This document shows positions 5,493 through 24,000 of a stretch of 24,000 nucleotides of DNA, in pieces. Under the pieces are notes generated by a model. That model was not told where the DNA came from. It did not search any database and saw only the letters and a program-made list of their open reading frames with translations. Each line of letters opens with the position of its first letter. The first letter of the stretch is position 1. The translations under genes were made by a program, and so were the position numbers. Source of the stretch: Pleurocapsa sp. (GTDB lineage Bacteria > Cyanobacteriota > Cyanobacteriia > Cyanobacteriales > Xenococcaceae); contig JBHJNX010000116.1 of assembly GCA_050330335.1 (NCBI GenBank), positions 18,495 through 42,494 on the forward strand, given 5' to 3'.

Positions 5493-5513
5493 ATATCTTT
5501 ACAGTAAAATTAA

Positions 5514-5540: not shown

Positions 5541-5575
5541 ATATTAAACTGGTATTCTATACTCTGGAGTAATTT

Positions 5576-7555: not shown

Positions 7556-7558
7556 TAA

Positions 7559-8560: not shown

Positions 8561-8561
8561 T

Positions 8562-10537: not shown

Positions 10538-10655
10538 ACTCTCATTTGTAGGGGTGAACCTGTTGTTATCCCCTACAACAAAAAACTAGAAGAAATTAAT
10601 TTCCCCTAGTCTAGTAAATTCAATGAAAATTGAAACAGATTGTTGTTGGAATATT

Positions 10656-10997: not shown

Positions 10998-11173
10998 CGG
11001 ATTGTCTCCTAAATTTACTTAATATTGTTAGGGTGTCTGAGAAATTAAGCTACTATTTTCTACTACTATTTATTATCTCTTAATAACTGTCTTTATTTTG
11101 ACACTCTACGGTTGTGGCGACAACAACTTATTCAACTCTGGTAATTAACAATAAGTCGTGTTTATCAATAGAT

Positions 11174-11545
11174 TTAACCAAAACTGTCTAAGTCTATTGC
11201 TTTAAAACCACCCTTTTTAAATTGTAAAAAAACTTCTTGTAATTGTGACCAAATCAACGAAGCAGTAAACAGAGTGATAGGTAAAGTGATACCATAGGCA
11301 ACAATAATACCGAAGCCAAAAGTCAAGAAACCCCCTGCCAAAAATATCCAAACTCCCAAACAAATTCCTGCATAAGTGAGAGCCAAACCAGAGCCTGCTA
11401 ATTGATAAGAACTAGAATCTTGCGGTTTTTTTGACCAAGATCGCAATTTTTGTTCGATTTGAACTTGAAATGTTGCACCAAAAATCATAGCGATCGCTAG
11501 TCCAATAATGGGTATTAGAAATGGCGGTTGAGGATAATAGTACAT
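11174..11545 (-). CDS. Small integral membrane protein (about 3 TM), unknown function
   Basis: 123-aa ORF with three long hydrophobic segments. It lies 40 bp downstream of the ABC1 kinase gene on the same strand. Confidence 0.5.
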   Translation of the reverse strand: MYYYPQPPFLIPIIGLAIAMIFGATFQVQIEQKLRSWSKKPQDSSSYQLAGSGLALTYAGICLGVWIFLAGGFLTFGFGIIVAYGITLPITLFTASLIWSQLQEVFLQFKKGGFKAIDLDSFG

Positions 11546-11585
11546 AAATAGTTAATTCAATGATTATTTTGCCTTTATAATCACT

Positions 11586-13319
11586 CTATCGCGTAGTGGT
11601 AGCAGTGGGAATAATTGCCGCTACTCTTTCACTAGAAATTTGACGAAAGGTATTAACTGCCAAATCGAAGATTTTTTGCGGCTGAATCTCTTCTTGAATC
11701 AAACTCCAAAGACGTTGTATTTCTGTAGTATGTAAGCGATCATCTTCTGTCAGAGCTAGTAGTAGTTGACGGCGTAAATATTGTCCTTCTTCTGATAATA
11801 AGTATTGTAATCCCAAGCGTGCGGTGGGTAATAGGTCAAAGCGTTCATCAGATTGAGCGATCGCAATCATGTTTTCTAATCTCTGCCACTGAAATTTGCC
11901 ATCTTTAATTAAAACATCGAGCAAACGCCTTCTAAGTTGGGGAGATTCTCCTGTTAGTAATCTTTGAGATACGTAGGGATAAGATACTTCGACGATTTTA
12001 AAATTGGGATTTAGGCTCAATGCCAATCCTTCTTGAGTAATTAAGGAACGAATAATTAGGGCAAATTTTGCAGGTAGACGAAAAGGATATTCATACATGA
12101 TTTCGGAAAATTCATCAGTGATGGTTTTAAAGTTGAAATCACCAACGCTTTCTCCAATTGCGTTACCTAAAACTTTTTCTAAGGCGGGAATAATCGGTTG
12201 AATGTCAGTATCTGGGGTTAAAAACCCTAAATTAACAAAATCTTTGGCTAAAGCTGGATAATCGTTATTAATTAACTGCACTACTGCACTGGCAATAGTT
12301 TCTTTCATGGATTCTTCTAACTGATCCATCATGCCAAAATCAATATATGCCATGCGACCATCTAGGGTGGCGAAAAGATTACCAGGATGGGGATCGGCAT
12401 GGAAAAACCCAAATTCTAATAGCTGACGCAAACCAGAAGTAACACCAATCTTGACTAATTTATCTGCATCTAAACCAGCTGCTTGAAGTTTAGCGACATC
12501 TGTTAGCTTAATGCCGTTAATCCATTCTAAAGTGAGAACTCTTTGATTACTATATTTTTTGTAAATAACTGGAACTTTAACGTCTGGATCACCATCAAAA
12601 TTGTAGGCAAATTTCTCGGCGTTATTGGCTTCGTTGAGATAGTCGATTTCTTCAAATAATTTGGTGCCGAATTCATCGACAATTAAAGTCAGATCATGAC
12701 CGAGATTTAATGGTAGCCAGGGTGCTAGCCAGCCAGCCAGCCAACGCATAAGATAAAGATCTAAACTGAGAAGGGGACGTAAATTAGGGCGTTGTACTTT
12801 AATCGCTACTTCTTCTCCACTGTGTAAGATACCTCGATAAACCTGACCTAAACTAGCTGCGGCAACTGGATTGGAAGAAATGTCGCGATAAGCAGTATCT
12901 ACAGGACATCCTAGTTCCGATTCGATAATTTCAAAGGCAATTTGATTGCTAAAGGGTGGTAATTGGTCTTGGAGTTTGATTAATTCATCGAGAAAATCTT
13001 TGCGAATTAAATCAGGCCTGGTAGACAGTGCTTGCCCAACTTTGATATATGTAGGCCCTAATTTGGTCAGAATTTTACGTAATTCTCTAGCACGTTTCTG
13101 TTTGTTTTTTTCTTCTTGTTTCGTCCAGCGATCCAAGAGCAAATGAAGAACAAAATTACCAAACAACCAAACTATCACAACTGCTCTCAGTACAACTTTC
13201 CAAGGTCGGTAGCGATATACTTGGGCTATCTTTTGGGGATCGTAACGTAAACAAGGGTCTTGTAGTCCGAATTGACTTGTTATTTGCCCCCGATCGCTAG
13301 ATAGTTTAGATGATTGCAT
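11586..13319 (-). CDS. ABC1/UbiB/AarF atypical kinase family protein
   Basis: 577 aa with the ABC1 signatures AAASLGQVYRG, EVAIKVQRP, FFHADPHPGNL and YIDFGMM. Confidence 0.88.
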   Translation of the reverse strand: MQSSKLSSDRGQITSQFGLQDPCLRYDPQKIAQVYRYRPWKVVLRAVVIVWLFGNFVLHLLLDRWTKQEEKNKQKRARELRKILTKLGPTYIKVGQALSTRPDLIRKDFLDELIKLQDQLPPFSNQIAFEIIESELGCPVDTAYRDISSNPVAAASLGQVYRGILHSGEEVAIKVQRPNLRPLLSLDLYLMRWLAGWLAPWLPLNLGHDLTLIVDEFGTKLFEEIDYLNEANNAEKFAYNFDGDPDVKVPVIYKKYSNQRVLTLEWINGIKLTDVAKLQAAGLDADKLVKIGVTSGLRQLLEFGFFHADPHPGNLFATLDGRMAYIDFGMMDQLEESMKETIASAVVQLINNDYPALAKDFVNLGFLTPDTDIQPIIPALEKVLGNAIGESVGDFNFKTITDEFSEIMYEYPFRLPAKFALIIRSLITQEGLALSLNPNFKIVEVSYPYVSQRLLTGESPQLRRRLLDVLIKDGKFQWQRLENMIAIAQSDERFDLLPTARLGLQYLLSEEGQYLRRQLLLALTEDDRLHTTEIQRLWSLIQEEIQPQKIFDLAVNTFRQISSERVAAIIPTATTTR

Positions 13320-13504: not shown

Positions 13505-14251
13505 TTAGGAAGCAACAGCAATACCGAGCATTTCTTCAGGAGTTAGGTGAGAATGAACGACTCTACCATCTTTAAACCAAATAATTCTCTGAGTTAAACG
13601 GGCTACTTCTGTTTCGTGTGTCACCATAACTACCGTAATACCGCTCTGATGCAATTCGCCAAAGATCTCCAGTACTTCTTTAGTCGTCTGTGAGTCTAAC
13701 GCCCCAGTTGGTTCATCGGCAAGTAATAATAAGGGTTGATTAACAATAGCACGAGCGATCGCTACTCGTTGTTGTTGTCCTCCAGATAGTTGATTAGGTT
13801 TATTATGCATCCTATTACCCAAGCCTACTTTCGCTAAAGCTACAGTGGCGCGATCGCGTCTTTCGTTATAAGGTATATCAGCGTACACCATAGGTAGCAT
13901 GACATTTTCTAAAGCACTTATTTGGGGTAACAGATGAAACTGCTGAAAGACAAAACCAATTTTGCGATTGCGAATTGTGGCCAATTCCGCATCGGAAAGT
14001 GCTGCAACAGTTACGTTATCTAAATAGTAATTTCCAGAAGTAGGTCGATCTAAACAACCGATAATATTCATTACGGTAGACTTTCCCGAACCAGATGCAC
14101 CCATAATCGAGCAGTATTCACCTTGATGAACGATTAAATTAACTCGATCTAAAGCATGAACTATGGTGTCACCGCTACCATAGGTTTTAGTAACTGCTTC
14201 TAGGCGAATTATTACCGAATTAGATTGTGGAGATATTCCAGCAGAATCCAT
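13505..14251 (-). CDS. ABC transporter ATP-binding protein, MacB/LolD/DevA type (no cognate permease adjacent)
   Basis: Walker A GASGSGKST, Q-loop FVFQQFHLLP, signature LSGGQQQRVAIARA, Walker B LLLADEPTGALD, H-loop VMVTHE. Confidence 0.9.
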   Translation of the reverse strand: MDSAGISPQSNSVIIRLEAVTKTYGSGDTIVHALDRVNLIVHQGEYCSIMGASGSGKSTVMNIIGCLDRPTSGNYYLDNVTVAALSDAELATIRNRKIGFVFQQFHLLPQISALENVMLPMVYADIPYNERRDRATVALAKVGLGNRMHNKPNQLSGGQQQRVAIARAIVNQPLLLLADEPTGALDSQTTKEVLEIFGELHQSGITVVMVTHETEVARLTQRIIWFKDGRVVHSHLTPEEMLGIAVAS

Positions 14252-14283: not shown

Positions 14284-15402
14284 TTATTCAGGGCGATCAG
14301 AGAAAGATGAATTATTTAATTTACCAACTAATTTACTTAATTCTTGTTGTATTTCTTGTAGACTAGTTTTTTCAATGAGATTTTTTTCTTGATTTAAATT
14401 AACTAAATGGTTATATTTATGACTGATATTGGCAACTTGCTGATTGAGTTCGAGAAACTTTTGGGTGAGTTTTTGCATGGAGTCTAAACTATACTCAAAA
14501 GACTGGGTTGATTTTTGTAAAATTAAAGAAGATTGAGAAAATTGATTTTGGGCGATCGCCAGATTGTTGGTTGCAGTAGCTAATTTTTCGGGGAAGCGAC
14601 TATTATCTAAGGTATTAGCAGCTTGTTTAAAAGTATCAGCACTATCATTAATTTTAGCAAATGCTTTGTTGACTGATTGTTCGATAGTTATCCCCAATTG
14701 TTGAACCATTTGATTGAAGTCTTGACTAAAGCGTTCGATGGCTACTTCAGTAGAACTCATTGGTTGTATTTGAGGTAAATAAATATTGTCAATATAGTCT
14801 TCTATAGTACTGAGTAATTTAGCTTTAGTTAAATTGGTATTCCACAGTAAATTAATTACTGTTAACAAAGAACTACAAGCAATCGCGATTAAACTAGTCG
14901 TAAAAGCAATCCCCATTCCTTGCAAGGGTGCATTTAATTCTTCTACTAAACTTCTAATATCATTTACATCTACTTGAGTAATAGTTTGACTTAAACTAGC
15001 CAGATTAAAAGTAATTCCCAAAAAAGTTCCTAGTAGTCCAAAAGAAAGTAATAAATTAGGTAAAATACGAGAGACGTTATCGGCAAATTCACAGGTCAAA
15101 GGTATACCCAAAAAACTAAATTTTTCTTGACTATATGTTCCTTCAATAATGGCTGACGTATTAATTTTTTCTAGATTTTCAATATCTCTGAATCTATATT
15201 CCAGTTTAGTAATTATTTTCGGAGGAAATTCTAATTTAATTCCACCTAATAATCTTCTAGTTTTACTTGCCATCTGGGATAAATGGATATACACCAGTAA
15301 TCGCAACAAGATGGCAAAAATAGTCGGTATAATTACCAAAAATACAGCTAAAAAAACTAGATAGCCGGGAAGTAAAGCCAAAATGCTTAAAATTTGTTCC
15401 AT
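14284..15402 (-). CDS. MotA/TolQ/ExbB-family channel-like protein with about 190-aa C-terminal helical (coiled-coil-like) tail
   Basis: TM1 is at residues 8-38, followed by a loop of about 70 aa. TM2 contains FGLLGTFLGI (compare ExbB GLFGTVWGI). TM3 contains GMGIAFTTSLIAIA (compare ExbB GIAEALIATAIGL). The rest is a Q/N/L-rich helical tail. No MotB/ExbD/TolR-like gene lies nearby. Confidence 0.6.
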   Translation of the reverse strand: MEQILSILALLPGYLVFLAVFLVIIPTIFAILLRLLVYIHLSQMASKTRRLLGGIKLEFPPKIITKLEYRFRDIENLEKINTSAIIEGTYSQEKFSFLGIPLTCEFADNVSRILPNLLLSFGLLGTFLGITFNLASLSQTITQVDVNDIRSLVEELNAPLQGMGIAFTTSLIAIACSSLLTVINLLWNTNLTKAKLLSTIEDYIDNIYLPQIQPMSSTEVAIERFSQDFNQMVQQLGITIEQSVNKAFAKINDSADTFKQAANTLDNSRFPEKLATATNNLAIAQNQFSQSSLILQKSTQSFEYSLDSMQKLTQKFLELNQQVANISHKYNHLVNLNQEKNLIEKTSLQEIQQELSKLVGKLNNSSFSDRPE

Positions 15403-15477
15403 GATCTTATCAAATATATGGCTATAAGGAAATTAGTTCCTAACTCTCTAGTAGTTTACCAATTTAATTTTAAACAA

Positions 15478-15505
15478 TTAATAGACTTCTCAAGAAGTCT
15501 ATTAA
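15478..15505 (-). terminator. Probable intrinsic terminator ending the cyn-NHase-hupE transcription unit
   Basis: Perfect 13-bp inverted repeat TTAATAGACTTCT / AGAAGTCTATTAA starting 12 nt after the hupE stop. On the minus strand it is followed by TTGTTTAAAATT. Confidence 0.55.
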
Positions 15506-15517
15506 CTAATAACTGAT

Positions 15518-16177
15518 TTACCCTATAATTGCCGAAGACAAAAAGACTATTCCGATCGCAGCGATCGCGCTACCTACAAAGCGAGTTATATATTTAAGAG
15601 AAATACGTTTGCTTAACTTAGTAGCTAGAATGTACGTTACTAATGAAATAGCTAACTGAATAATAGTAAAACCAATTAGATATGCCACTAAAGGAGTTGG
15701 TTCTGCGCCAAATATGCCTTCTCCGTAAGCAAAACCATGAAATATTCCTGATAACCCAGCTAGTGTAGTTATTAGTAAGTAATAATTGTTTTTTTCCCTT
15801 TTTTTCCCTTTAATAACTAATAAATAGCCAAATAAAACTACGGTCGCAGCAATAACTATTTCGGGAATGGGTAAATCAATCAAAGCTAAATGAATTCCCG
15901 CGCCGATACCCGTAGCAATGACAAAAGCAATGGGAATAATGATTCCTGCGGTCATCCCCACTGCCATTAAGCCACTAGCTACGATAAAAGCCAGATGATC
16001 CAAGCCAATCATTGGGTGTCCGAAACCAGACATAATGCCTTCAAAGAAGTTAGCGGGCATTTTACCCCCAAGGGGATGATGGGCGAAAGCTGGTGCGGTA
16101 ATTAATAGTTCGATGCCAACAATTCCTGCTGCTATGCTTAATTTGGATAAATAGGAATTCTGCTTTAATGATTTCAT
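15518..16177 (-). CDS. hupE: HupE/UreJ-family metal (Ni/Co) permease
   Basis: Signal-like N-terminus ending APAFA, then HHPLGG. Family motif GFGHPMIGLDHLAFIVASG. Multiple TM segments. The ORF opens at TTG 16213, overlapping the cobW-like stop; I prefer ATG 16177 (MKSLKQN..., 219 aa). Confidence 0.85.
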   Translation of the reverse strand: MKSLKQNSYLSKLSIAAGIVGIELLITAPAFAHHPLGGKMPANFFEGIMSGFGHPMIGLDHLAFIVASGLMAVGMTAGIIIPIAFVIATGIGAGIHLALIDLPIPEIVIAATVVLFGYLLVIKGKKREKNNYYLLITTLAGLSGIFHGFAYGEGIFGAEPTPLVAYLIGFTIIQLAISLVTYILATKLSKRISLKYITRFVGSAIAAIGIVFLSSAIIG

Positions 16178-16200
16178 TTTGCTATCTCTATTAGTTATTT

Positions 16201-17172
16201 TTACAATAAACAAGTTAAAAAGCCTTGTTTGAGGTCAGATTCATTGAGATTGCGCCCAATAAATATCAGTTCGTTAGTTTTAATTTCATCTGGTTTCCAG
16301 GGTTTACCAGGTCTACCATCTAGGGTCATATGTACTCCTTGAAAGACAAATCTGCGGTCTTCATCATCGACATTGAGTATCCCCTTCATGCGAAAGATAT
16401 CCTGACCGATCGCTTGTACTAATTGATACAGCCAGCGATTGAGTTGATCGCCGTTGACAACACCAGTTTGACTGATGGCGATCGCTATAACGGTTTCATC
16501 GTGTTCGTGGGCAGATTCTTCTAAGAATTGGGGGTCGATGGCTAGGGCATTTTTGAGATCGAATGCTTGCATCCCTAAAATTAAATCCATATCGATCTGG
16601 CAATTTTGGGTAGGATAAATTTTGGCGATCGCATTTCTGCCCCGTATTTTCTTAGTTAAGATGGTTAATTCTTCTAGGGTAACGAGATCGGTTTTATTGA
16701 GTAAAATTACATCGGCAAAAGCAATTTGTTCTTCTGCTTCGCTACTGTGCCAATGGTCTTGAATATATTTGGCATCAACTACGGTAATAACTGCATCTAA
16801 CTCTGTTTGTTTGTAGAGAATTTCATCGACAAAAAAGGATTGAATGACGGGGGCAGGATCGGCAAGTCCAGTGGTTTCGATGACGATATGGTCAAAGCTA
16901 TCCCGCCTGGCTAACAATTTACTAATAATCCGAATTAAGTCTCCTCTTACCGTACAGCAAATACAGCCGTTATTCATTTCCAGAATTTCTTCATCTGCAT
17001 CCACAACTAATTGATGATCGATGCCAATTTCCCCAAACTCGTTAACAATGACAGCTATTTTTTTCCCGTGTTCTTGGGTCAAGATGTTATTGAGTAAGGT
17101 AGTTTTTCCCGCCCCCAAATATCCCGTTAAAACCGTGACAGGAATTTTGCTTATTCTACTGCTTTTCTTCAT
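16201..17172 (-). CDS. COG0523 / CobW-family G3E GTPase metallochaperone
   Basis: P-loop [12 protein letters not shown], metal motif [23 protein letters not shown], plus a CobW C-terminal-like domain. It overlaps the upstream accessory gene by 17 nt. Confidence 0.9.
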
Positions 17173-17512
17173 ACTTGCAATCTATTATTTGTGCGGTGCG
17201 TCTTTCTAATTCCCCTGCGTCGATTAGTTCCGATTCAATTACCATCTTTTCCAAAGCTAGTAACCAGCGTTGATAATAGTCCCAGCTTTTATCTTCCAAA
17301 ACATATTCTGCTTCCCATTCAGCAATAGAAGCAATCAACTCCTGGCGAAAATCTTCCCATTCATAATGACCTTTTTTCGCCAAAGCCAAAGCCATCCCGA
17401 AGGCTAATCCTTCCCAGTCGCGATCAAATTTTAGTTCGCCGTTATTTCTTGGGGGCGATTCTTCACTGCCCATGAGGCTAGTAGCTGCAAAATGTTCAAA
17501 TTTTAGTTGCAT
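17156..17512 (-). CDS. Nitrile hydratase accessory (activator/epsilon, beta-homologue) protein
   Basis: 118 aa with [41 protein letters not shown]...[10 protein letters not shown]. This is the pattern of the small Co-NHase accessory protein family. It lies immediately downstream of the alpha subunit. Confidence 0.8.
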
Positions 17513-17536
17513 GATAATTAATGAATAATTAATAAT

Positions 17537-18160
17537 TTAGGTTGTTTCTACTAAGGCTACGCCCATCATGGCTTCGGGGGTGACGAGTCCTGCTAATTCT
17601 GATTCACTCATCCCTTCTGTACCAGGAGGGCGTTGGGGTAAGACAAACCAGCGTATCTGCGCGCTACTATCCCAAACGTGAATTTCAGTTGATTCGGGCA
17701 ATTCTACACCAAATTCGGTCAATACCGCCCTGGGTTCTCTAGCAACACGGGCGCGAAAGGTGGGGTCTTTAAACCAATAGGGAGGTAAACCAAGAGTGGG
17801 CCAAGGATAGCAGGAACAAAGAGTACAAACAATTACATTGTGGACTTCTGGGGTATTTTCTACCACTTTCATATGTTCCCCTTCCGCCCCCGACATTCCT
17901 ACAGGTAGCCCGATATCGGAGATAGCAGCATTACAATCTTCTAGTAATTTGGCTTTAAATTCGGGGTCAGTCCAGGCTTTTGCCACAATTTTTGCCCCAT
18001 TGAAAGGACCCATTTCTGTCTCAAAATAGTTAAGAACTTGGTTAACCGTCTCGCTAGAGATAATTCCTTTTTCGATTAGTAGAGATTCTAAAGCCCTAAC
18101 CTTGGCTGCACTATAAATTTCGCGATCGCGATCGTAACTAAAGCCGTCGTATTTGGTCAT
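17537..18160 (-). CDS. nthA: Nitrile hydratase alpha subunit, cobalt type
   Basis: 207 aa with the metal-binding claw VCTLCSCYPW. Thr in CTLCSC is the Co-type signature; Fe-type enzymes have CSLCSC. Flanking conserved blocks NGAKIVAKAWTDPEFK and VWDSSAQIRWFVLPQRPPGTEG. Confidence 0.95.
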   Translation of the reverse strand: MTKYDGFSYDRDREIYSAAKVRALESLLIEKGIISSETVNQVLNYFETEMGPFNGAKIVAKAWTDPEFKAKLLEDCNAAISDIGLPVGMSGAEGEHMKVVENTPEVHNVIVCTLCSCYPWPTLGLPPYWFKDPTFRARVAREPRAVLTEFGVELPESTEIHVWDSSAQIRWFVLPQRPPGTEGMSESELAGLVTPEAMMGVALVETT

Positions 18161-18176
18161 AATAATTTCTCCCCAC

Positions 18177-18923
18177 CTATGCCGATTCTAAATAGGTTTC
18201 AAACAAGTCGTTGTAGTAAACATTATTTGGTTCTGCCATTTCGCCCCATAATTCCGTTGCGGTGAACTTGACGTTATACACTGGCATGGGTTTGCCCAAA
18301 CCATCGGTAGTAGGGAAAAAGTAAGTGTAGGGTGCTGGGTAAACGACATCGATCGTGCCTACTTTCCCCCGCAGGTTGCCTGGTAGACGGGTATGTTCTC
18401 CAGGGGGTGTATCTTTAACCCGAACTGTATCCCCAACGGTGAATTTGGGAGTCATTTCTACATCCCTTTGGGGTGAATCTCCTTCTCGTAGATATTTAAT
18501 TATCTGTGCATCGATCGCAGGTTCGGGTTTGTTGGGTAAAGGGGAACTATCTAAATTGCCGTCTTCTAAATACAGGGCAGTTTTAGCATCTAATTCTTCG
18601 GCGGTAATGTAGCCTTCATTGATAAAGAAGCCTGCAATTCCTCCCAACCATTTTTCGTAGTAACGATATTTAAAATAGTCAAAGGGATTCATCCCCTCTG
18701 CACCCTGGCGTAAATGTCCCCAACTCCAAAAGCTTTTAAAATTAGTCGGTACGGTACTTATAGAATATTCGGGTACGGCATCTTTATCTAAATGATTGCT
18801 TAATGCCATCATCGCTACGTGAATACCAAAAATCCGTTCTTCCCAAGGTACGACGAATACCCGTTTCTGGAAATCTATTTCTCCTAAATTTTCTAGCCCT
18901 GCTAGATTATGTTGTAATTTCAT
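18177..18923 (-). CDS. nthB: Nitrile hydratase beta subunit (divergent N-terminus)
   Basis: 248 aa. The C-terminal half aligns by eye to known beta subunits (PKFTVGDTVRVK...HTRLPGNLRGKVGTI...VYNVKFTATELWG...VYYNDLFETYLE). The N-terminus reads HNLAGLENLG instead of the canonical (H/Y)DxGG. Beta-alpha-accessory order is typical of Co-type clusters. Confidence 0.85.
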   Translation of the reverse strand: MKLQHNLAGLENLGEIDFQKRVFVVPWEERIFGIHVAMMALSNHLDKDAVPEYSISTVPTNFKSFWSWGHLRQGAEGMNPFDYFKYRYYEKWLGGIAGFFINEGYITAEELDAKTALYLEDGNLDSSPLPNKPEPAIDAQIIKYLREGDSPQRDVEMTPKFTVGDTVRVKDTPPGEHTRLPGNLRGKVGTIDVVYPAPYTYFFPTTDGLGKPMPVYNVKFTATELWGEMAEPNNVYYNDLFETYLESA

Positions 18924-18928
18924 AGTTG

Positions 18929-18966
18929 TTGGTCATTAGTCATTAGTCATTGGTCATTGGTCATTA
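18929..18966. repeat. Tandem heptamer array TTRGTCA x5.4 (STRR2-like)
   Basis: TTGGTCA TTAGTCA TTAGTCA TTGGTCA TTGGTCA TTA. It fills the whole gap between the FGE-like stop (18964-18966) and the nthB start (18923). Confidence 0.85.
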
Positions 18967-19908
18967 CAAATTCATTGCCACGCGAAATCCGATCGCCCGA
19001 TTTAAAGATTCGGCAGGATATCCCGAACGATGTGCCGAACGACAGTGAGATGGCTTATTTGCCCAGGATCCACCCCGCAGAATACGGCATTCCGATTTAC
19101 CTCCTTTTATCCAAGCTTTACCGCTATAGGGCGAGCCGTGATAGTTGTCGTGCCAAACATCGGCACACCATTCCCGCACGTTACCGTGTAAGTCGTATAA
19201 ACCGAAAACATTGGGCATAAAGCTACCCACATCAATAGTTTGTTGGCGATAGGGAACTCCTGTTTCTACAGCATAGGCAAAAGTGCTAGCGTAGTCGGCT
19301 AAATTCCCCGTTACAGTATCCCCGTAAGCAAAAGGACTATTGCTATTACCGCGACAAGCATATTCCCATTCTGCTTCGCTAGGTAACCGGTATTGCTTAC
19401 CCGTATGTGCTGACAGGCGAGCGCAAAATTCTACTGCATCTAGCCAAGAAACGCATTCTACGGGGCGGTTTTCTCCTTTAAAGTGGGAAGGATTGGGATT
19501 TAGTTCTCGCTTTACTTGGGCAAGTTGTGCCACAGCACGCCACTGTCCTTGAGTTACGGGATATTTACCCAGGAAAAAACTTGCTACTCTTACTGAATGC
19601 AAGGGACGTTCGCGATCGCTGCTCTCTTTCTCCTTCAGTGATGCACCCATGTTAAATTTACCTGCGGGAATCGATACCATTTCTAGGGTTCGATAGTGAC
19701 CTAAATCTTCGGTGTAAAGCAAAGCCCGATGATAGGTGCGTTGTATTTCTTGTCCCGTGCGATCAACTTTTACTGTGGCAAAATCAAAATTTGGCAAGTC
19801 AGATAATTCCGAGCTAGAAGTAGTTGCCACGGCGTGATTTGCCGATACAGACCCAACTAAACCTACTCCTCCATAACCTGTCAGTTTGATAAAATTACGT
19901 CGCTTCAT
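18964..19908 (-). CDS. FGE-sulfatase-fold (SUMF1/EgtB/PvdO family) protein with twin-arginine signal
   Basis: N-terminus MKRRNFIKLTGYGGVGLVGSVSANHAVA is Tat-like. Family blocks ERPLHSVRVASFFLGKYPVTQGQW, YRLPSEAEWEYACRG, GLYDLHGNVREWC and RGGSW...HCRSAHRSG...IGFRV. Confidence 0.85.
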   Translation of the reverse strand: MKRRNFIKLTGYGGVGLVGSVSANHAVATTSSSELSDLPNFDFATVKVDRTGQEIQRTYHRALLYTEDLGHYRTLEMVSIPAGKFNMGASLKEKESSDRERPLHSVRVASFFLGKYPVTQGQWRAVAQLAQVKRELNPNPSHFKGENRPVECVSWLDAVEFCARLSAHTGKQYRLPSEAEWEYACRGNSNSPFAYGDTVTGNLADYASTFAYAVETGVPYRQQTIDVGSFMPNVFGLYDLHGNVREWCADVWHDNYHGSPYSGKAWIKGGKSECRILRGGSWANKPSHCRSAHRSGYPAESLNRAIGFRVAMNL

Positions 19909-19978
19909 TTTTGGTATAGATATTAGTATAATTTATCGATTATTAATTATTAGGGTGGGCAATGCCCACTCTACGGGA

Positions 19979-20422
19979 TTACCATTTCTTGTAAGGTAAA
20001 AATTTACCGCACATGGTCACTTTAACGCGATCGCCTTTAGGATCGGGGACTTTATCTACTTCAATAGAAAAATCGATCGCACTCATGATTCCGTCGCCAA
20101 ATTTTTCGTGAATTACGGCTTTGATTGGCATTCCGTATACTTGCATGATTTCATAAAAGCGATAAATTAAAGGATCGGTAGGGATTTGGGGTTCTAATGA
20201 ACCTTTTAAGGGGGGTACGGTTAAAATTTCCGCCATTAATTCGGGTAAGCCTAAAGTAGTAACGATTTTAGTTGCTTCATCCATGTCTGCGCTGGCTTGA
20301 CGGTAGATTACTGAGGCGATCCAGGTTTCATCTCTTCCTACTACTTTTTCTAAATCTTCAAAAGTAACTCCTTTTTCTTTCTTGGCTGCTAATAATTTTG
20401 CGGTAATTTCTGAAATAGGCAT
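19979..20422 (-). CDS. cynS: Cyanase (cyanate hydratase)
   Basis: 147 aa, which is the characteristic size. N-terminal HTH-like region [34 protein letters not shown]-terminal catalytic domain ending [14 protein letters not shown]. It follows an NrtABD-type transporter as in cynABDS. Confidence 0.93.
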
Positions 20423-20476
20423 AATTTTATTCCTCTTGCTTAATAATTACTGGATTTGGGCGAATGCCATTCGCCC

Positions 20477-21361
20477 CTACGGTTTGATTCTCGCTTCCTC
20501 TACCGCCCTAGTCTCTCGATACAAATGATCTTCCATTTCTTTTTTTAACTTGAAATATTCAGGATGGTTTTCGACGGTGTTGCGATCGCGAGGACGGGGG
20601 AAAGGTACTTCTAATACTTCGTCGATCCTGGCTGCGGGTCCTTTGGTCATCATCACGATGCGATCAGATAGTAGTAAGGCTTCGTCGATGCTGTGGGTAA
20701 TCATAATCGCAGTTTTGCGTTGTTGTTCCCAAATTCGTTCAATTTCGTCTTGCAGAAAACCACGGGTGAGGGCATCTAATGCCCCAAAGGGTTCGTCCAT
20801 CAGCAAAATTTGGGGATTTATGGCTAATGCCCTAGCTATCCCTACTCTTTGACGCATTCCGCCTGATAGTTCGTGGGGACGTTTCTTTTCTGCCCCTGTT
20901 AACCCCACAAGCTGAATATTTTCTTTGACAATGCGTTTTTGCTGTTTCTCTGGCATTTTGGGAAATACCGTTTCCACCGCAAATTTAATATTGTCCTGTA
21001 CTGTCATCCAGGGCATTAGGGCGTAACTCTGGAAGACCATACCGCGATCGGGTCCTGGCTTGTCTACGATTTGCCCGTTAATCCTCACTTCTCCACTAGT
21101 AGCAGAACTCAAACCTGCAATAATATTAAGTAGGGTAGACTTGCCACAACCAGAAGGACCAATTATGGAGACAAAGGTGTTGTGTTCGATATCCAGATTA
21201 ATATCTTCGATCGCCACAAAGTCAGAACTTGCCTGTCCCGTCAGCTTATTCAGCCAACCTTTGCGACCAGGAAATACCTTGGAGATCTGACGCAAGGATA
21301 TCTGGGCATTACTAGGATCAGTAGACACAGTATGATAGTTAGAAGAAAATGATATACTCAT
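20477..21361 (-). CDS. cynD: NitT/TauT-family ABC ATP-binding protein (CynD/NrtD-like)
   Basis: Walker A GPSGCGKST, signature LSGGMRQRVGIARA, Walker B LLMDEPFGALD, H-loop IMITHS. 4-nt overlap with the upstream permease gene. The symbol is assigned by synteny with cynS only. Confidence 0.85.
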   Translation of the reverse strand: MSISFSSNYHTVSTDPSNAQISLRQISKVFPGRKGWLNKLTGQASSDFVAIEDINLDIEHNTFVSIIGPSGCGKSTLLNIIAGLSSATSGEVRINGQIVDKPGPDRGMVFQSYALMPWMTVQDNIKFAVETVFPKMPEKQQKRIVKENIQLVGLTGAEKKRPHELSGGMRQRVGIARALAINPQILLMDEPFGALDALTRGFLQDEIERIWEQQRKTAIMITHSIDEALLLSDRIVMMTKGPAARIDEVLEVPFPRPRDRNTVENHPEYFKLKKEMEDHLYRETRAVEEARIKP

Positions 21362-22200
21362 GGTTTGCCAAAAGAAACTAATTTTTCTAGATAGGCAAAG
21401 ATTTGGTCGAGAATGATACCTACAATGCCGATAATGAAGATTGCCACCAGAATATTGGGGATATATAGGTTATTCCATTCATTCCAGATAAAATATCCCA
21501 ATCCCGTCCCTAACAGCATTTCCGCAGCCACAATTACTAGCCAAGAAATACCCATGCTAATCCGTAACCCAGAGATAATATTAGGTAAGGCAGCAGGGAT
21601 AATCACTTTAAAGATCGTCCGCCATCTCGATGCACCAAGGGTTTTAGAGACATCTAAATAATCGGGATTAACATTAGCTACCCCAAAAGCGGTATTAGTT
21701 AGGGTAGGCCAAATACTGGCAATGGTAATGATGAATATTCCTGTAAGTTCCGAATCGCGGAAGAGATACAAACCCAAAGGCAACCAGGCTAAAGGGGATA
21801 CGGGTTTTAGAAGTTGGAAATAAGGATTAAAGGCTTTAAATGCCACCTTAGAAATCCCGACTAAAATCCCCAAAGGTACGGCAATTAAGGAAGCAAGAGT
21901 ATAGCCAATGGCTACCCGCCTCAAACTAATTAACAAATTCCAACCAATACCCAGATCGTTAGGTCCATTATCGTAGAAAGGATGAGTCACCCAATACCAT
22001 AATTCCTCAATGGTTAAAGATGCAGTGGGCATCCCCTTGGCAAACCAGTTCATTTTTGCCCCAAATTCCCAAAATAAGAGAAATATCCCCAGAGATAATA
22101 AGAATAACAGAAACGCTTGCACATTATCGTTATTCATTAATTTATTATCTTTTTTGCTATTAATTGCTTGTTCTCGAACTGCTGTCATTTCATTTACCAT
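21358..22200 (-). CDS. cynB: NitT/TauT-family ABC permease (CynB/NrtB-like)
   Basis: 280 aa, about 6 TM. EAA-type loop LDVSKTLGASRWRTIFKVIIPAALPNI. The symbol is assigned by synteny only. Confidence 0.85.
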   Translation of the reverse strand: MVNEMTAVREQAINSKKDNKLMNNDNVQAFLLFLLSLGIFLLFWEFGAKMNWFAKGMPTASLTIEELWYWVTHPFYDNGPNDLGIGWNLLISLRRVAIGYTLASLIAVPLGILVGISKVAFKAFNPYFQLLKPVSPLAWLPLGLYLFRDSELTGIFIITIASIWPTLTNTAFGVANVNPDYLDVSKTLGASRWRTIFKVIIPAALPNIISGLRISMGISWLVIVAAEMLLGTGLGYFIWNEWNNLYIPNILVAIFIIGIVGIILDQIFAYLEKLVSFGKP

Positions 22201-22270
22201 TCACCATTTAGCATTTATCAGTTAACATTTGTCATTGAGCATCTGGAATTTAAAAATAAATGTTCGATGA

Positions 22271-23944
22271 TTAAACGCCGTATTTCTTGATTTGTTCGTC
22301 TACGTATGCCTGGGAATTAGCAGGATCAAAGGTATCAAATGCTAAAGTTTCTGTGCGATAAATATCATCTGGGGGGGTTTGACCAACTTCTTGTGCCAAT
22401 TCTCTCGCTAAATCAGTCATAAAGATTTCTTTGCCCACTTCTTCGTATTTACCATCAGCGATCGCACTTTTCACCTTACCGTCTCCTTGTAAATCCCAAC
22501 GCACCAATTGAGAAGATATCCAGTTAGCAAAACTCTGCCAGGGATAGGGGTCGAAATCAATGCGATCTGGAATTGATTTGCTATTACCCAACCCATCTTC
22601 AAAGTTACCTGTTAAGACAGCTTCTACTACTTCTACAGGCTGATTGAGAAACGCCCTTTCAGAGATAGCTTGAGCAATTTCAGGACGGTTGGCAGGATCG
22701 CGGGCATAACCAGCAGCTTCGATAATCGATTTGTTTAAAGCCCTAAAGGTATTGGGATTAGCGGTAATCCATTCATCACTGGCAGCAAAAGCACAACAGG
22801 GATGTCCTGGCCATAATTCCTTGGTTAATTTGTGAATAAAACCAGCTTCTTCGTATACTGCCCGTTGATTGAACGGATCGGGCATTAAGTAAGCGTCGAT
22901 ATCCCCTGCTACTAATTGGGCGATACTGTCTGGTGGCGGTACAGCGCGAATTTTTACGTCTTGATCGGGGTCGATGCCTCCTGTGGCTAGGTAGTAACGC
23001 AACAAGAGATTGTGCATGGAATAAGGGAAGGGTACGCCGATATTAAAGCCTTTAAAGTCCGCCGGACCATTGACTTTACCCTTATATTTATTGGCAACGG
23101 TAATCGCCTGTCCGTTGATGTTTTCAATACTGGCAAGTTTCACTCCAAAGGAAGCCGAACCTAAACCTAAAGTCATAGCGATAGGCATCGGGGCTAACAT
23201 ATGATAGGCATCTAATTCACCAGCGATCGCCGAATCTCGAACTGCACCCCAACTGGGCATTTTTACTACTTCGGCATTAAAGCCATATTTTTTATAGAAC
23301 CCTAATGGTTCAGACATGATAATCGGGGTAGCGCAAGTAATAGGAATAAAGCCAATTTTTAAATCTTTTTTCTCCAGATTATCCTCACCAGCCACAGCTT
23401 CAGAGCTTTCTGTAGCCGCTTCTTCGGCTTGTTGATTGGGGGCGCAGTTAGCTAAGGTAACTAAAGCTGCACCCACCGCCAAGTTCTTCAAAAAACGACG
23501 ACGACTAAACTGACTATTATGAACTACGTCACCAAAGAATTGCCCCGCCTTCTGTCCAAAAGCAGCAGCAAAAGCGTTTTCTATACCTCCTGCTTGTTTA
23601 CATAGTTCTAAGACCAAGCTTTCCCGTTTTGGATCGCCTTTTCCTGCAATCTTCAGTAATAATGTCTTTCTTAAATCCGCAGTGTTGACTGCATCTGCCA
23701 TCTTGAAAGTATTAGATTTATAGACCCTCATTTTAATCAGGTCGTCGATCATTTCCACTGGATCTTGGGGCATATCTTCCGCCATAAACTTCCAGTGGTC
23801 GGCAGCCATATGAAAGCCACCGCAGACCATACACATTGAATCTAATTCTCTCAGATTTCCTTTTTGAGAATTAAGATTTCCCCATTTATTTCTAGCGTTG
23901 TTTGTAGTAAATACCATAGTTCGATCTGTAATTTGACTAGTCAT
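22271..23944 (-). CDS. cynA: NrtA/CmpA/CynA-family periplasmic substrate-binding lipoprotein with an unusual N-terminal extension of about 145 aa
   Basis: Residues about 190-557 are classic NrtA/CmpA (LKIGFIPITCATPIIM...SWGAVRDSAIAGELDAYHML...NGQAITV...HPCCAFA). The twin-arginine motif plus lipobox (SRRRFLKNLAVGAALVTLANC) sits at residues 146-167, not at the N-terminus. The exact start is uncertain: in-frame ATGs run from M1 to M82. Confidence 0.85.
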   Translation of the reverse strand: MTSQITDRTMVFTTNNARNKWGNLNSQKGNLRELDSMCMVCGGFHMAADHWKFMAEDMPQDPVEMIDDLIKMRVYKSNTFKMADAVNTADLRKTLLLKIAGKGDPKRESLVLELCKQAGGIENAFAAAFGQKAGQFFGDVVHNSQFSRRRFLKNLAVGAALVTLANCAPNQQAEEAATESSEAVAGEDNLEKKDLKIGFIPITCATPIIMSEPLGFYKKYGFNAEVVKMPSWGAVRDSAIAGELDAYHMLAPMPIAMTLGLGSASFGVKLASIENINGQAITVANKYKGKVNGPADFKGFNIGVPFPYSMHNLLLRYYLATGGIDPDQDVKIRAVPPPDSIAQLVAGDIDAYLMPDPFNQRAVYEEAGFIHKLTKELWPGHPCCAFAASDEWITANPNTFRALNKSIIEAAGYARDPANRPEIAQAISERAFLNQPVEVVEAVLTGNFEDGLGNSKSIPDRIDFDPYPWQSFANWISSQLVRWDLQGDGKVKSAIADGKYEEVGKEIFMTDLARELAQEVGQTPPDDIYRTETLAFDTFDPANSQAYVDEQIKKYGV

Positions 23945-23964
23945 TAGTCATTAGTCATTGGTTA
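23937..23964. repeat. Tandem heptamer array, same TTRGTCA unit, x4 (degenerating)
   Basis: CTAGTCA TTAGTCA TTAGTCA TTGGTTA. It overlaps the annotated start codon (23944-23942) of the cynA-like gene and has the same orientation as the 18929-18966 array. Confidence 0.7.
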
Positions 23965-24000
23965 TTAGAAGGCAGGAGTTATTCAGCCACCGATTTACAA

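What the first reader, a model, noticed from the sequence alone, without database searches (positions are those of the whole stretch)
15518..23944. Ten-gene co-directional cluster joining a cynABDS cyanate module to a cobalt nitrile hydratase module with its own metal-supply genes
All ten genes are on the minus strand. The gaps are 70, -4, 54, 70, 40, 16, 24 and -17 bp, then -13 or +23 bp depending on the hupE start. The only convincing terminator hairpin follows the last gene (15478-15505). The order is SBP, permease, ATPase, cyanase, Tat-FGE-fold protein, NHase beta, NHase alpha, accessory, COG0523 GTPase, HupE. cynABDS is a known cyanobacterial operon. NHase clusters are best known from actinobacteria and proteobacteria, where an amidase gene is usually adjacent. 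No amidase is present here, and the NHase is welded onto a cyanate uptake/cyanase unit. This suggests one nitrogen-scavenging unit for cyanate plus some nitrile-like compound, perhaps sharing the NrtA-type transporter. I do not know of this combination having been described.
Basis: partly seen in the sequence, partly recalled or inferred. Interest (0 to 1): 0.7.

Follow-up and report, generated by a model that had tools for sequence, protein, structure and literature searches.

The report
Cyanate operon fused to cobalt nitrile hydratase
A stromatolite cyanobacterium carries its cyanate-uptake and cyanase genes joined head-to-tail to a cobalt nitrile hydratase gene set with its own cobalt-supply genes; the junction recurs in several other cyanobacteria, and it looks like a combined kit for scavenging nitrogen from small cyano compounds, made of known parts in an arrangement I did not find described.

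Summary
Ten minus-strand genes sit at the stated coordinates with exactly the stated gaps, and every family call is confirmed: NrtA/CmpA-type binding protein, permease, ATPase, cyanase, a PvdO-like FGE-fold protein with a twin-arginine signal, NHase beta, Co-type NHase alpha (VCTLCSCY), NHase accessory protein, COG0523 GTPase and HupE/UreJ.

There are small corrections. cynA probably starts at 23917 and hupE at 16177. Two GC-rich hairpins without a U-tract follow cynD and cynS.

- The NHase module is widespread in cyanobacteria (80 loci). It usually stands alone behind an NtcA-type box (22 of 57 upstream regions against 26 of 338 controls).
- A cynS-to-NHase junction recurs in 5 of the 80 loci and in one to two of six close relatives. 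Gene order differs among them, so the linkage is real but a minority state.
- In the window the cynS-FGE spacer is only 70 bp (39 bp in sibling assemblies). It replaces the promoter region that precedes FGE in close relatives without cynS, which favours read-through.
- No amidase lies in the window. Some relatives carry BiuH-like hydrolases, formamidase or urease nearby.
- Transporter sharing is untested.

I rate it a new variant of a known kind, of moderate interest.

The parts
22271..23944 (-). cynA-like substrate-binding lipoprotein of the NrtA/CmpA/CynA family. The probable true start is 23917 (548 aa). It has a conserved orphan N-terminal domain (23507-23917), then a twin-arginine signal with a lipobox (23432-23506), then the binding domain.
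   Evidence: Pfam NMT1_2 at 261 bits and a TIGR01409 TAT signal hit at aa 147-171. Best solved structures are NrtA 2g29, CmpA 2i48 and the NrtC/CmpC regulatory domains. Orthologues are 546-550 aa, and the start codon is set by alignment with relatives.
21358..22200 (-). cynB, ABC permease of the nitrate/cyanate type
   Evidence: TIGR01183 at 215 bits (cutoff 209) and BPD_transp_1. It is 78-86% identical to cynB in the cynABDS loci L024 and L030.
20477..21361 (-). cynD, ABC ATPase; overlaps cynB by 4 nt
   Evidence: TIGR01184 at 337 bits (cutoff 292).
20458..20476 (-). GC-rich hairpin (8-bp stem) immediately after the cynD stop codon, with no U-tract
   Evidence: Fold energy -12.7 kcal/mol, z = -2.0.
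19979..20422 (-). cynS, cyanase
   Evidence: TIGR00673 at 208 bits (cutoff 113) and the Cyanate_lyase domain.
19951..19973 (-). GC-rich hairpin after the cynS stop codon (GUGGGC-AUU-GCCCAC core), with no U-tract
   Evidence: Fold energy -12.3 kcal/mol, z = -2.25. It is conserved in the sibling assemblies L081 and L082.
19911..19941 (-). 31-nt insertion in the cynS-FGE spacer relative to two other assemblies of the same population. The spacer is 70 bp here and 39 bp there.
   Evidence: Alignment of the window with L081 and L082.
18964..19908 (-). PvdO-like FGE-fold protein with a twin-arginine-type signal (MKRRNFIK...). It lacks the FGE catalytic cysteine pair.
   Evidence: FGE-sulfatase domain at 199 bits. 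The best NCBIfam match is PvdO at 161 bits, below its cutoff of 500. The best solved structure is PvdO 5hha, E = 1e-42. The RR motif is present in 41 of 43 homologues. Conserved residues are listed.
18932..18966 (.). Heptamer tandem array (5 copies) filling the FGE-nthB spacer
   Evidence: Tandem Repeats Finder; sequence shown.
18177..18923 (-). nthB, nitrile hydratase beta subunit (a single polypeptide)
   Evidence: TIGR03888 at 220 bits (cutoff 152).
17537..18160 (-). nthA, cobalt-type nitrile hydratase alpha subunit (VCTLCSCY)
   Evidence: TIGR01323 at 302 bits (cutoff 250). The thiocyanate hydrolase model scores only 188 bits against a cutoff of 291. Co-type solved structures rank best.
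17156..17512 (-). NHase accessory protein (beta-subunit homologue)
   Evidence: TIGR03889 at 67 bits (cutoff 46). It follows nthA in 73 of 79 loci.
16201..17172 (-). COG0523 GTPase, a putative metallochaperone; overlaps the accessory gene by 17 nt
   Evidence: cobW plus CobW_C domains. It scores below the cutoffs for CobW, ZigA and YjiA. It lies next to NHase in 74 of 79 loci.
15518..16213 (-). HupE/UreJ-family Ni/Co permease; probable start at 16177 (219 aa)
   Evidence: PF04955 at 121 bits. The gene caller's start and homologue N-termini support 16177. It is present in 37 of 80 NHase loci.
15475..15508 (-). Terminator-like hairpin after hupE: a 15-bp AT-rich perfect stem followed by a U-rich tail
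22190..22236 (.). Degenerate heptamer array in the cynA-cynB spacer
23938..23968 (.). Heptamer array (AATGACT, about 4 copies) covering the ORF's first ATG. It lies between a TCTAAT box and the probable true start.

Best explanation
This is a composite nitrogen-scavenging gene cluster made of two known modules.

Module 1 is cynABDS. An ABC importer of the NrtA/CmpA/CynA family, with a lipoprotein binding subunit, takes up cyanate, and cyanase converts cyanate plus bicarbonate to ammonia and CO2.

Module 2 is the cyanobacterial cobalt nitrile hydratase module. NthBA hydrates a nitrile to an amide. The small beta-like accessory protein and a COG0523 GTPase mature and metallate the alpha subunit. 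HupE imports cobalt. A PvdO-like FGE-fold protein with an export signal is a conserved member of the module whose role is unknown.

In this organism module 2 has lost the NtcA-type promoter region that precedes FGE in the close relatives without cynS. It sits 39-70 bp behind cynS, so it is most likely transcribed by read-through from the cynA promoter. The two GC-rich hairpins would act as stability or attenuation elements.

Shown here: gene identities, cobalt type, spacing, recurrence of the junction, and NtcA-box enrichment in relatives. Inferred: co-transcription, N control in this particular organism, cyanate specificity, the cobalt roles of COG0523 and HupE, and the substrate. The amide product is handled by an enzyme encoded elsewhere. 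Relatives suggest BiuH-like cysteine hydrolases, formamidase or urease.
For: - Family assignments are above curated cutoffs, and the NHase is Co-type.
- The genes are tightly spaced and co-directional. The cynS-FGE spacer is 39 bp in L081 and L082.
- Close relatives whose NHase module is not preceded by cynS (L002, L005, L006, L007) have a spacer of 300-500 bp with GTAN8TAC upstream of FGE.
- The core cobW, nthB, nthA and accessory genes co-occur in 73-79 of the 80 loci. FGE is present in 43 and hupE in 37.
- The cynS-to-NHase junction appears in L009, L012, L024, L030, L032 and L090. There are three different internal gene orders, across several cyanobacterial groups by record title (Pseudanabaenales, Pseudanabaenaceae, Thermosynechococcaceae, Acaryochloris) plus the window's own close relatives (Xenococcus, Pleurocapsa, Waterburya).
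- NtcA boxes occur in 22 of 57 module-upstream regions against 26 of 338 controls, P about 1e-10.
- A conserved GTAAAAATnGCTAC-N22-TCTAAT lies upstream of cynA in L088, L090, L091 and L092.
- nthAB and cynS are co-induced under N depletion in Arthrospira (PMC4509649).
- HupE acts as a cobalt transporter in cyanobacteria (review PMC4284471).
Against: - There are no transcript data.
- The window's own 297-bp cynA upstream region has no GTAN8TAC, even allowing one mismatch.
- The hairpins after cynD and cynS could terminate part of the transcripts.
- Most NHase modules (about 70 of 80) and several cynABDS clusters (L086, L091, L092) are not linked to each other. The fusion is therefore dispensable and may reflect only shared regulation.
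- HupE and a COG0523 paralogue follow cynS even without NHase, so the assignment of HupE to NHase is not exclusive.
- No cyanobacterial NHase has a known substrate, as far as my searches show.
Confidence: 0.6

Rival explanations
1. These are two independent transcription units that are merely neighbours. cynABDS ends at the hairpin after cynS, and FGE through hupE is expressed from a promoter inside or just after cynS. The adjacency reflects the clustering of NtcA-regulon nitrogen genes into an island, with no functional coupling beyond common regulation.
For: - A GC-rich hairpin follows the cynS stop codon.
- A promoter-like match lies at 19968-19939, although such matches are no more frequent than in shuffled sequence.
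- In MAG P01_G01_bin.67 the probable cynS-FGE spacer is about 686 bp, long enough for its own promoter.
- Most NHase modules stand alone with their own NtcA box.
- Urease, formamidase and BiuH genes also neighbour NHase in relatives, which fits an island of nitrogen genes.
Against: - The spacer is only 39 bp in the sibling assemblies.
- The hairpin lacks a U-tract.
- There is no NtcA box between cynS and FGE here.
- The junction recurs with short gaps of 51-127 bp in L009, L012, L030 and L032.
Confidence: 0.25
2. The cluster is one pathway for small cyano compounds. The NHase acts on a C1 or N-cyano nitrile such as cyanamide, HCN or cyanourea, taken up by CynABD or produced in the periplasm by the PvdO-like protein. 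It yields urea, formamide or biuret, which are then hydrolysed by urease, formamidase or BiuH.
For: - In Waterburya (L004), a close relative, the NHase module is flanked by BiuH (411 bits, cutoff 370), formamidase (581 bits, cutoff 406) and an allophanate hydrolase fragment.
- ureABC lie upstream in L002 and L007.
- BiuH-like hydrolases occur in 17 of 80 loci.
- NitT/TauT-type ABC importers are fused upstream of FGE-NHase in L021 and L039, and a CynA paralogue precedes it in L002 and L007.
- NHases are reported to hydrate the N-cyano groups of acetamiprid and sulfoxaflor (abstracts of PMC12646544 and PMC13243292).
Against: - All of this is circumstantial, and no substrate has been tested.
- None of these hydrolases is in the window.
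- Most BiuH-like genes sit next to the second, divergent NHase paralogue rather than the main module (positions).
- CynA here is the cynBDS-type orthologue, for which cyanate and nitrite are the known ligands in Synechococcus elongatus (as summarised in PMC6627978).
Confidence: 0.15

Closest known systems
cynABDS operon of Synechococcus elongatus PCC 7942 and marine Synechococcus (cyanate ABC transporter plus cyanase)
   Same: The gene order is the same: binding protein, permease, ATPase, cyanase. The transporter is of the NrtA/CmpA family, and cyanase scores above the equivalog cutoff. An NtcA-type promoter is present in close relatives.
   Different: Here the operon continues without a convincing terminator into six further genes. 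This organism has no NtcA box upstream of cynA. A response regulator with an AraC domain and a PAS histidine kinase lie upstream. The binding protein carries an orphan N-terminal domain of about 140 aa ahead of its export signal; whether the S. elongatus protein has it was not checked.
Rhodococcus rhodochrous J1 cobalt NHase clusters (nhhBAG and nhlBAE, with the cobalt permease NhlF and an adjacent amidase); from my own knowledge
   Same: Both have a Co-type alpha subunit with VCTLCSC, beta-alpha gene order, a small beta-like accessory gene directly after alpha, and a linked cobalt importer.
   Different: The importer here is HupE/UreJ, not a NiCoT. A COG0523 GTPase is present in addition to the small accessory protein. 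There is no amidase and no amide-responsive regulators. A PvdO-like protein with an export signal is part of the module. Control is by NtcA-type nitrogen regulation rather than amide induction.
Iron-type NHase clusters with a COG0523 activator (Rhodococcus sp. N-771 Nha3, Pseudomonas chlororaphis B23 P47K); from my own knowledge
   Same: A COG0523 GTPase is encoded next to nthAB.
   Different: Those enzymes are Fe-type (VCSLCSC) and lack the small beta-like accessory protein. Here the enzyme is Co-type and has both helpers.
Arthrospira/Limnospira PCC 8005 nthA-nthB-nthE cluster
   Same: It is a cyanobacterial NHase with an activator gene. It is induced by N depletion together with cynS and formamidase (PMC4509649; PMC8400943).
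   Different: In Arthrospira the locus numbers place nth (60174-60176) and cyn (11877-11880) in different places. The paper calls the cluster 'uncommon in cyanobacteria', whereas the genome scan here found relatives in at least 80 species-level genomes.
PvdO of Pseudomonas (periplasmic FGE-fold protein needed for the last oxidation step of the pyoverdine chromophore)
   Same: It is the best solved-structure match (5hha, E = 1e-42, about 240 aligned residues). Both have an FGE-sulfatase fold, lack the FGE cysteine pair and are predicted to be exported.
   Different: The protein scores far below the PvdO equivalog cutoff (161 bits against 500). There is no pyoverdine context; the conserved partner is NHase (43 loci).

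Membership tests
cynABDS cyanate-utilisation operon | A cyanase gene (CynS) | tested here: met
   TIGR00673 at 208 bits (cutoff 113); PRK02866 at 216 bits (cutoff 150).
cynABDS cyanate-utilisation operon | A three-component NrtA/CmpA-family ABC importer directly upstream of cynS on the same strand | tested here: met
   NMT1_2 binding protein, TIGR01183 permease and TIGR01184 ATPase, with gaps of 70, -4 and 54 nt. Solved-structure matches are NrtA and CmpA.
cynABDS cyanate-utilisation operon | Cyanate specificity of the transporter | not testable with these tools
   No curated CynA-specific model exists, and the assignment rests on synteny with cynS. Source names are generic, such as 'CmpA/NrtA family' and 'nitrate/nitrite transport'.
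cynABDS cyanate-utilisation operon | An NtcA-dependent promoter (GTAN8TAC about 22 nt upstream of a -10 box) | tested here: inconclusive
   It is absent from the 297 bp upstream of cynA in this organism. It is present and conserved in the close relatives L086, L088, L090, L091 and L092. One box lies further upstream, between the response-regulator and kinase genes.
Cobalt-type nitrile hydratase | Alpha subunit with the metal-binding motif VCTLCSC(Y); Thr and Tyr mark the cobalt type | tested here: met
   VIVCTLCSCYPWP in the translation. TIGR01323 at 302 bits (cutoff 250). Co-type structures score 240-299 bits against 170-179 for Fe-type.
Cobalt-type nitrile hydratase | A separate beta subunit encoded next to alpha | tested here: met
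   TIGR03888 at 220 bits (cutoff 152), 16 nt upstream of nthA.
Cobalt-type nitrile hydratase | A small beta-like accessory (activator) gene downstream of alpha | tested here: met
   TIGR03889 at 67 bits (cutoff 46).
Cobalt-type nitrile hydratase | Nitrile-hydrating activity and cobalt content | not testable with these tools
   This needs expression and assay.
Thiocyanate hydrolase (SCNase) | Gamma subunit above the SCNase model cutoff, and the beta homologue split into two subunits | tested here: not met
   TIGR03887 at 188 bits, below its cutoff of 291. The beta subunit is one 248-aa polypeptide. SCNase structures rank lowest among the matches.
Classical NHase-amidase or aldoxime-nitrile gene cluster | An adjacent amidase (amidase-signature or nitrilase-superfamily) and/or an aldoxime dehydratase | tested here: not met
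   No such domain appears in any window ORF of 90 aa or more. Across the 80 related loci there are 2 with an amidase-signature-like motif, 2 with an AmiF-like gene and 17 with a BiuH-like gene.
Formylglycine-generating enzyme (FGE/SUMF1) | FGE-sulfatase fold | tested here: met
   PF03781 at 199 bits.
Formylglycine-generating enzyme (FGE/SUMF1) | A conserved catalytic cysteine pair in the C-terminal RGGS...C...C segment | tested here: not met
   The only cysteines conserved at 95% or more among the 42 sequences aligned (the window protein plus 41 homologues) are C162 and C185. The single Cys in the C-terminal segment (SHCRSAHR) is not conserved. The alignment to bacterial FGE shows the region.
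PvdO (dihydropyoverdine dehydrogenase) | Score above the equivalog cutoff | tested here: not met
   NF051459 at 161 bits, below its cutoff of 500. PvdO is the closest solved structure only.
COG0523 metallochaperone GTPases | cobW GTPase domain plus CobW_C domain | tested here: met
   PF02492 at 204 bits and PF07683 at 77 bits. It is not CobW, ZigA or YjiA by the equivalog cutoffs.
HupE/UreJ Ni/Co permeases | HupE_UreJ domain with an N-terminal signal and an HHP motif at the mature N-terminus | tested here: met
   PF04955 at 121 bits. The sequence reads ...APAFAHHPLGG. Metal specificity was not testable.

The most novel reading that the evidence does not exclude
The cyanobacterial NHase module would be a dedicated, NtcA-controlled system for small cyano or N-cyano compounds such as cyanamide, HCN or cyanourea. 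Fused to cynABDS, it would form a single 'cyano-nitrogen' assimilation operon. The conserved PvdO-like protein with an export signal would be a new periplasmic component, either producing or processing the substrate or capturing cobalt for HupE. It never co-occurs with a DUF1097 membrane protein, which may replace it. The orphan N-terminal domain of CynA, which carries a CxxC...H...DH motif, would be a cytoplasmic regulatory or metal-binding element.
Probability: 0.15. Interest if true: 0.7.

Novelty: new variant of a known kind. Interest (0 to 1): 0.45.

Why it matters
Cyanate is a recognised nitrogen source for cyanobacteria, but no cyanobacterial nitrile hydratase has a known substrate or role. 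Three results here make a nitrogen-scavenging role concrete and testable. The Co-NHase module is widespread in the phylum. It is preceded by NtcA-type boxes far more often than chance allows. It has been joined to the cyanate operon in at least three different gene orders.

The comparison also exposes three unexplained conserved parts, each of which could be studied in cultured strains such as Acaryochloris marina MBIC11017 or Xenococcus sp. PCC 7305:
- a PvdO-like protein with an export signal in the NHase module;
- an orphan domain placed ahead of the export signal of CynA;
- metal-supply genes that follow cynS even where NHase is absent.

If the substrate turns out to be a small cyano compound, that would add a new entry to microbial-mat and marine nitrogen budgets.

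Tried and rejected
- The promoter and terminator consensus scan gave counts no different from shuffled sequence and is uninformative.
- An NtcA-box search upstream of cynA in this organism found nothing with up to one mismatch and nothing of the form GT-N10-AC. The box between the response-regulator and kinase genes has no well-spaced -10 box.
- Rfam found no riboswitch or other RNA family in the window or in L081.
- Thiocyanate hydrolase was considered because of the link to cyanate chemistry. I rejected it on model scores and on the unsplit beta subunit.
- A true FGE that might oxidise the NHase cysteines was considered, because the NHase motif CYPWP faintly resembles the FGE target CxPxR. 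I rejected it because the FGE cysteine pair is missing and the protein carries an export signal.
- AlphaFold2 on the CynA N-terminal domain, with a 22-sequence alignment, gave pLDDT 49. It was unusable, so I ran no fold search.
- The two primary cyanobacterial cyn papers (PMC1797288, PMC3019706) are not held.
- A bulk Pfam scan of all 404 unlabelled neighbour ORFs was impractical. I replaced it with BLAST and motif searches for amidase types.
It was replaced by six look-ups of close cynA orthologues, counting the window's own contig.

Full report
**Observation.** From those coordinates the intergenic distances are 70, -4, 54, 70, 40, 16, 24 and -17 nt, then -13 or +23 nt depending on the hupE start, as reported.

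Profile searches confirm each identity:
- an NMT1_2 substrate-binding protein with a TAT-signal hit at residues 147-171;
- a nitrate-type ABC permease (TIGR01183, 215 bits, cutoff 209) and ATPase (TIGR01184, 337 bits, cutoff 292);
- cyanase (TIGR00673, 208 bits, cutoff 113);
- an FGE-sulfatase-domain protein;
- NHase beta (TIGR03888) and alpha (TIGR01323, 302 bits, cutoff 250);
- the NHase accessory protein (TIGR03889);
- a COG0523 GTPase (cobW plus CobW_C);
- a HupE/UreJ permease.

The alpha subunit carries VCTLCSCY, and cobalt-type NHases are its best solved-structure matches. Iron-type enzymes and thiocyanate hydrolase score far lower.

The hairpin after hupE is a 15-bp perfect, AT-rich stem followed by a U-rich tail.

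**Corrections to the anatomy.**
- cynA orthologues are 546-550 aa and begin ATGGTA. The first ATG of the window ORF lies inside a heptamer array. The true start is therefore probably 23917.
- hupE probably starts at the ATG at 16177.
- Two GC-rich hairpins of about -12 kcal/mol, without U-tracts, directly follow the cynD and cynS stop codons.
- The FGE-fold protein is PvdO-like. PvdO (5hha) is the best solved match at E = 1e-42. The protein is far below the PvdO equivalog cutoff, and the FGE catalytic cysteine pair is not conserved.
- No amidase or aldoxime dehydratase is encoded anywhere in the window.

**Source and flanks.** The exact NthA sequence is found on a 35.6-kb contig of MAG GCA_964414915.1 and in stromatolite metagenome assemblies. 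The closest NHase relatives are Xenococcus, Waterburya and Pleurocapsa-like genomes.

The longer contig shows what lies upstream of cynA: a PAS histidine kinase on the same strand and a response regulator with an AraC DNA-binding domain on the other. This regulator is 50% identical to the gene directly upstream of cynA in a Pseudanabaenaceae locus (L030). The same pair precedes cynA in L088 and L091.

Two sibling assemblies lack 31 nt of the cynS-FGE spacer, which leaves only 39 bp there.

**How general is the NHase module?** A scan of one genome per species found NthA relatives in at least 80 loci, nearly all cyanobacterial, with a few Gammaproteobacteria. I mapped the ten window proteins onto these loci and clustered all neighbouring ORFs.
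- The core cobW, nthB, nthA and accessory genes are present in 73-79 loci.
- The PvdO-like gene is present in 43 loci, and its twin-arginine motif is present in 41 of the 43 homologues.
- hupE is present in 37 loci.
- The PvdO-like gene and a DUF1097 membrane-protein gene (19 loci) never occur in the same locus.
- Other recurrent neighbours are NitT/TauT-type ABC importers with their own binding protein, BiuH-like isochorismatase-family hydrolases (17 loci), AsnC regulators, and a second, divergent Co-type NHase.

**Does the cyn linkage recur?** Seen from the NHase side, cynS lies immediately upstream and co-directional in L009, L012, L024, L030 and L032, with the order cynS-hupE-(FGE)-cobW-nthB-nthA-accessory. 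L024 and L030 show the full cynABDS.

Seen from the cynA side, I looked at six close orthologues (86-100% identity):
- The window's own contig has the ten-gene arrangement.
- L090 has cynABD, a cynS split into two ORFs, nthB, nthA, the accessory gene, cobW and hupE, without FGE.
- In MAG P01_G01_bin.67 the cynABDS contig ends with the same 10 nt that start the FGE-NHase contig. This suggests adjacency across a spacer of about 686 bp.
- L086, L091 and Xenococcus PCC 7305 (L092) have cynABDS followed by hupE and no NHase. In L091 and L092 a WD40 protein, an 83-aa CHEPDCPP protein, a second COG0523 paralogue (67% identity) and DUF1348 follow. The Xenococcus NHase lies on another contig (L005).

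The junction therefore exists in at least three gene orders and in several cyanobacterial groups, but it is a minority state.

**Regulation.** Perfect NtcA boxes (GTAN8TAC) lie within 400 bp upstream of the first gene of the NHase module in 22 of 57 loci with a complete upstream region. The rate in control intergenic regions of the same loci is 26 of 338 (binomial P about 7.5e-11). The loci are not phylogenetically independent.

Among the window's close relatives, the four whose NHase module is not preceded by cynS and whose upstream region could be read (L002, L005, L006, L007) have such a box upstream of FGE. In the window, cynS occupies that region.

Upstream of cynA, L088, L090, L091 and L092 share GTAAAAATnGCTAC-N22-TCTAAT, and L086 has GTAGCAATTATTAC. 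The window and its siblings have no such box, and they carry a heptamer array between a TCTAAT box and the start codon.

One NtcA box lies between the divergent response-regulator and kinase genes, but without a convincingly spaced -10 box.

Published work shows that nthAB, cynS and formamidase are induced together by N depletion in Arthrospira PCC 8005 (PMC4509649).

**Most likely mechanism.** CynABD imports cyanate. In S. elongatus the transporter prefers cyanate and also carries nitrite, as summarised in PMC6627978. CynS then releases ammonia.

The NHase module hydrates a nitrile in the cytoplasm. The accessory protein and the COG0523 GTPase supply and insert cobalt, which HupE imports; HupE's role as a cyanobacterial cobalt transporter is reviewed in PMC4284471.

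Because the junction is 39-70 bp and lacks a U-tract terminator, read-through from the cynA promoter is the simplest reading, at about 0.6. The main rival is two adjacent units in a nitrogen island.

**Fate of the amide and possible substrates.** This is unknown for this organism. In Waterburya (L004) the NHase module is flanked by BiuH (411 bits, cutoff 370), formamidase (581 bits, cutoff 406), an allophanate hydrolase fragment and an ABC importer. Urease genes lie upstream in L002 and L007. Classical amidase-signature enzymes are rare neighbours.

Two other observations bear on the substrate. NitT/TauT importers are fused upstream of FGE-NHase in L021 and L039, and a CynA paralogue (72% identical among its members and 58-61% to CynA) lies directly upstream in L002 and L007. 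NHases are also reported to hydrate N-cyano groups of insecticides.

Together these allow, but do not establish, the idea that small cyano compounds such as cyanamide, HCN or cyanourea are the substrates.

**Literature.** Open-access full-text searches found cyanobacterial NHases mentioned as a monophyletic clade (PMC3323583) and as N-regulated in Arthrospira. They found no description of a cynABDS-NHase fusion, of an FGE/PvdO-like member of NHase clusters, or of an NtcA link beyond Arthrospira. Two key subscription papers could not be read.

**Side finding.** The CynA-type binding proteins carry a conserved N-terminal region of about 140 aa ahead of their twin-arginine signal and lipobox. It holds invariant residues in the pattern C-x2-C-G-x2-H-x4-H-W and a conserved AFAAAFG segment. 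A search of 1.84 billion representative proteins found only 40 matches, all at the N-terminus of this family. It has no Pfam or solved-structure match, and the structure prediction was unreliable.

**Verdict.** This is a new variant of known systems, assembled from well-understood modules, and it recurs in several cyanobacteria. The interest is moderate (0.45). It comes mainly from the unexplained conserved accessory parts and from making the role of cyanobacterial NHase testable.

Noticed in passing
window 23432-23917 (minus strand): The CynA-type binding protein has a conserved region of about 140 aa ahead of its twin-arginine signal and lipobox, with invariant C-x2-C-G-x2-H-x4-H-W and a conserved AFAAAFG segment. 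It is conserved in CynA and in the CynA2 paralogue. Only 40 representatives were found among 1.84 billion proteins, all N-terminal in this family. It has no Pfam or solved-structure match, and the AlphaFold2 model had pLDDT 49. A cytoplasmic domain ahead of a Tat signal is an odd topology.
   Followed up: partly
window 18932-18966, 22190-22236, 23938-23968 (also 7524-7552): Heptamer tandem arrays (AATGACC/AATGACT and relatives) fill the FGE-nthB and cynA-cynB spacers and cover the first ATG of the cynA ORF. From memory, they resemble the cyanobacterial STRR heptamer repeats. In the window they occupy the position where close relatives have a shorter leader downstream of an NtcA-type promoter.
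   Followed up: partly
window 19911-19941: A 31-nt insertion in the cynS-FGE spacer relative to two other assemblies of the same population (L081, L082), where the spacer is only 39 bp.
   Followed up: partly
window 20458-20476 and 19951-19973: Compact GC-rich hairpins of about -12 kcal/mol directly after the cynD and cynS stop codons, without U-tracts. They may be stability or attenuation elements.
   Followed up: partly
L081 1659-3950 (upstream of the window end): A response regulator with an AraC domain (minus strand) and a PAS histidine kinase (plus strand) precede cynA. The same pair is found in L088 and L091, and a 50%-identical regulator sits directly upstream of cynA in L030. A GTAN8TAC box lies between the two genes (L081 2655-2668).
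   Followed up: partly
L091 13467-17513; L092 13496-17560; L086 13583-14729: In close relatives, cynABDS is followed by hupE and then by a WD40 protein, an 83-aa protein with a CHEPDCPP motif, a second COG0523 paralogue and DUF1348, with no NHase. L086 has hupE only. Metal-supply genes thus accompany cynS even without NHase, which is unexplained because cyanase is not known to need a metal.
   Followed up: partly
L001-L080 (related loci): The PvdO-like FGE-fold gene (43 loci) and a DUF1097 membrane-protein gene (19 loci) at the head of the NHase module are mutually exclusive, with no locus carrying both.
   Followed up: partly
e.g. L034 1347-6849; also L014, L022, L033, L035, L053, L060, L075 and others: About 15 loci carry a second, divergent Co-type NHase (alpha about 55% identical, VCTLCSCY retained, short or split beta). 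It lies next to a BiuH-like hydrolase, a NitT/TauT ABC importer with its own binding protein, and an AsnC-type regulator, just upstream of the main module.
   Followed up: partly
L004 12083-20594; L007 687-3264; L002 504-2996: In Waterburya the NHase module is flanked by biuret amidohydrolase BiuH and formamidase (both above curated cutoffs), an allophanate hydrolase fragment and a BMP-type ABC importer. In L002 and L007, urease structural genes lie a few kb upstream. In L002 the ureC reading frame is split into three ORFs.
   Followed up: partly
L002 6143-7756; L007 6170-7783; L030 16654-18303: A CynA paralogue, 72% identical among its members and 58-61% to CynA, has no adjacent permease or ATPase genes. 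It has its own GTAN8TAC box and lies directly upstream of FGE-NHase in L002 and L007. It is paired with an acyl-CoA-dehydrogenase-like gene.
   Followed up: partly
L090 13546-13989: cynS is split into two ORFs (64 and 63 aa) in this relative. This could be a frameshift, a pseudogene or an assembly error.
   Followed up: no
window 14284-15402 (minus strand): A 372-aa membrane and coiled-coil protein just downstream of the terminator hairpin has no Pfam hit and only weak, below-cutoff similarity to ZorA-type proteins. An ABC ATPase follows (13505-14251).
   Followed up: no
window 831-13319: The rest of the window is ordinary cyanobacterial housekeeping or envelope genes: polysaccharide export (Poly_export/SLBB), a Wzz-type chain-length and P-loop protein, CCB1, a histidine kinase, a glycosyltransferase, a Uma2 endonuclease, an E1 dehydrogenase and an ABC1 kinase.
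   Followed up: no
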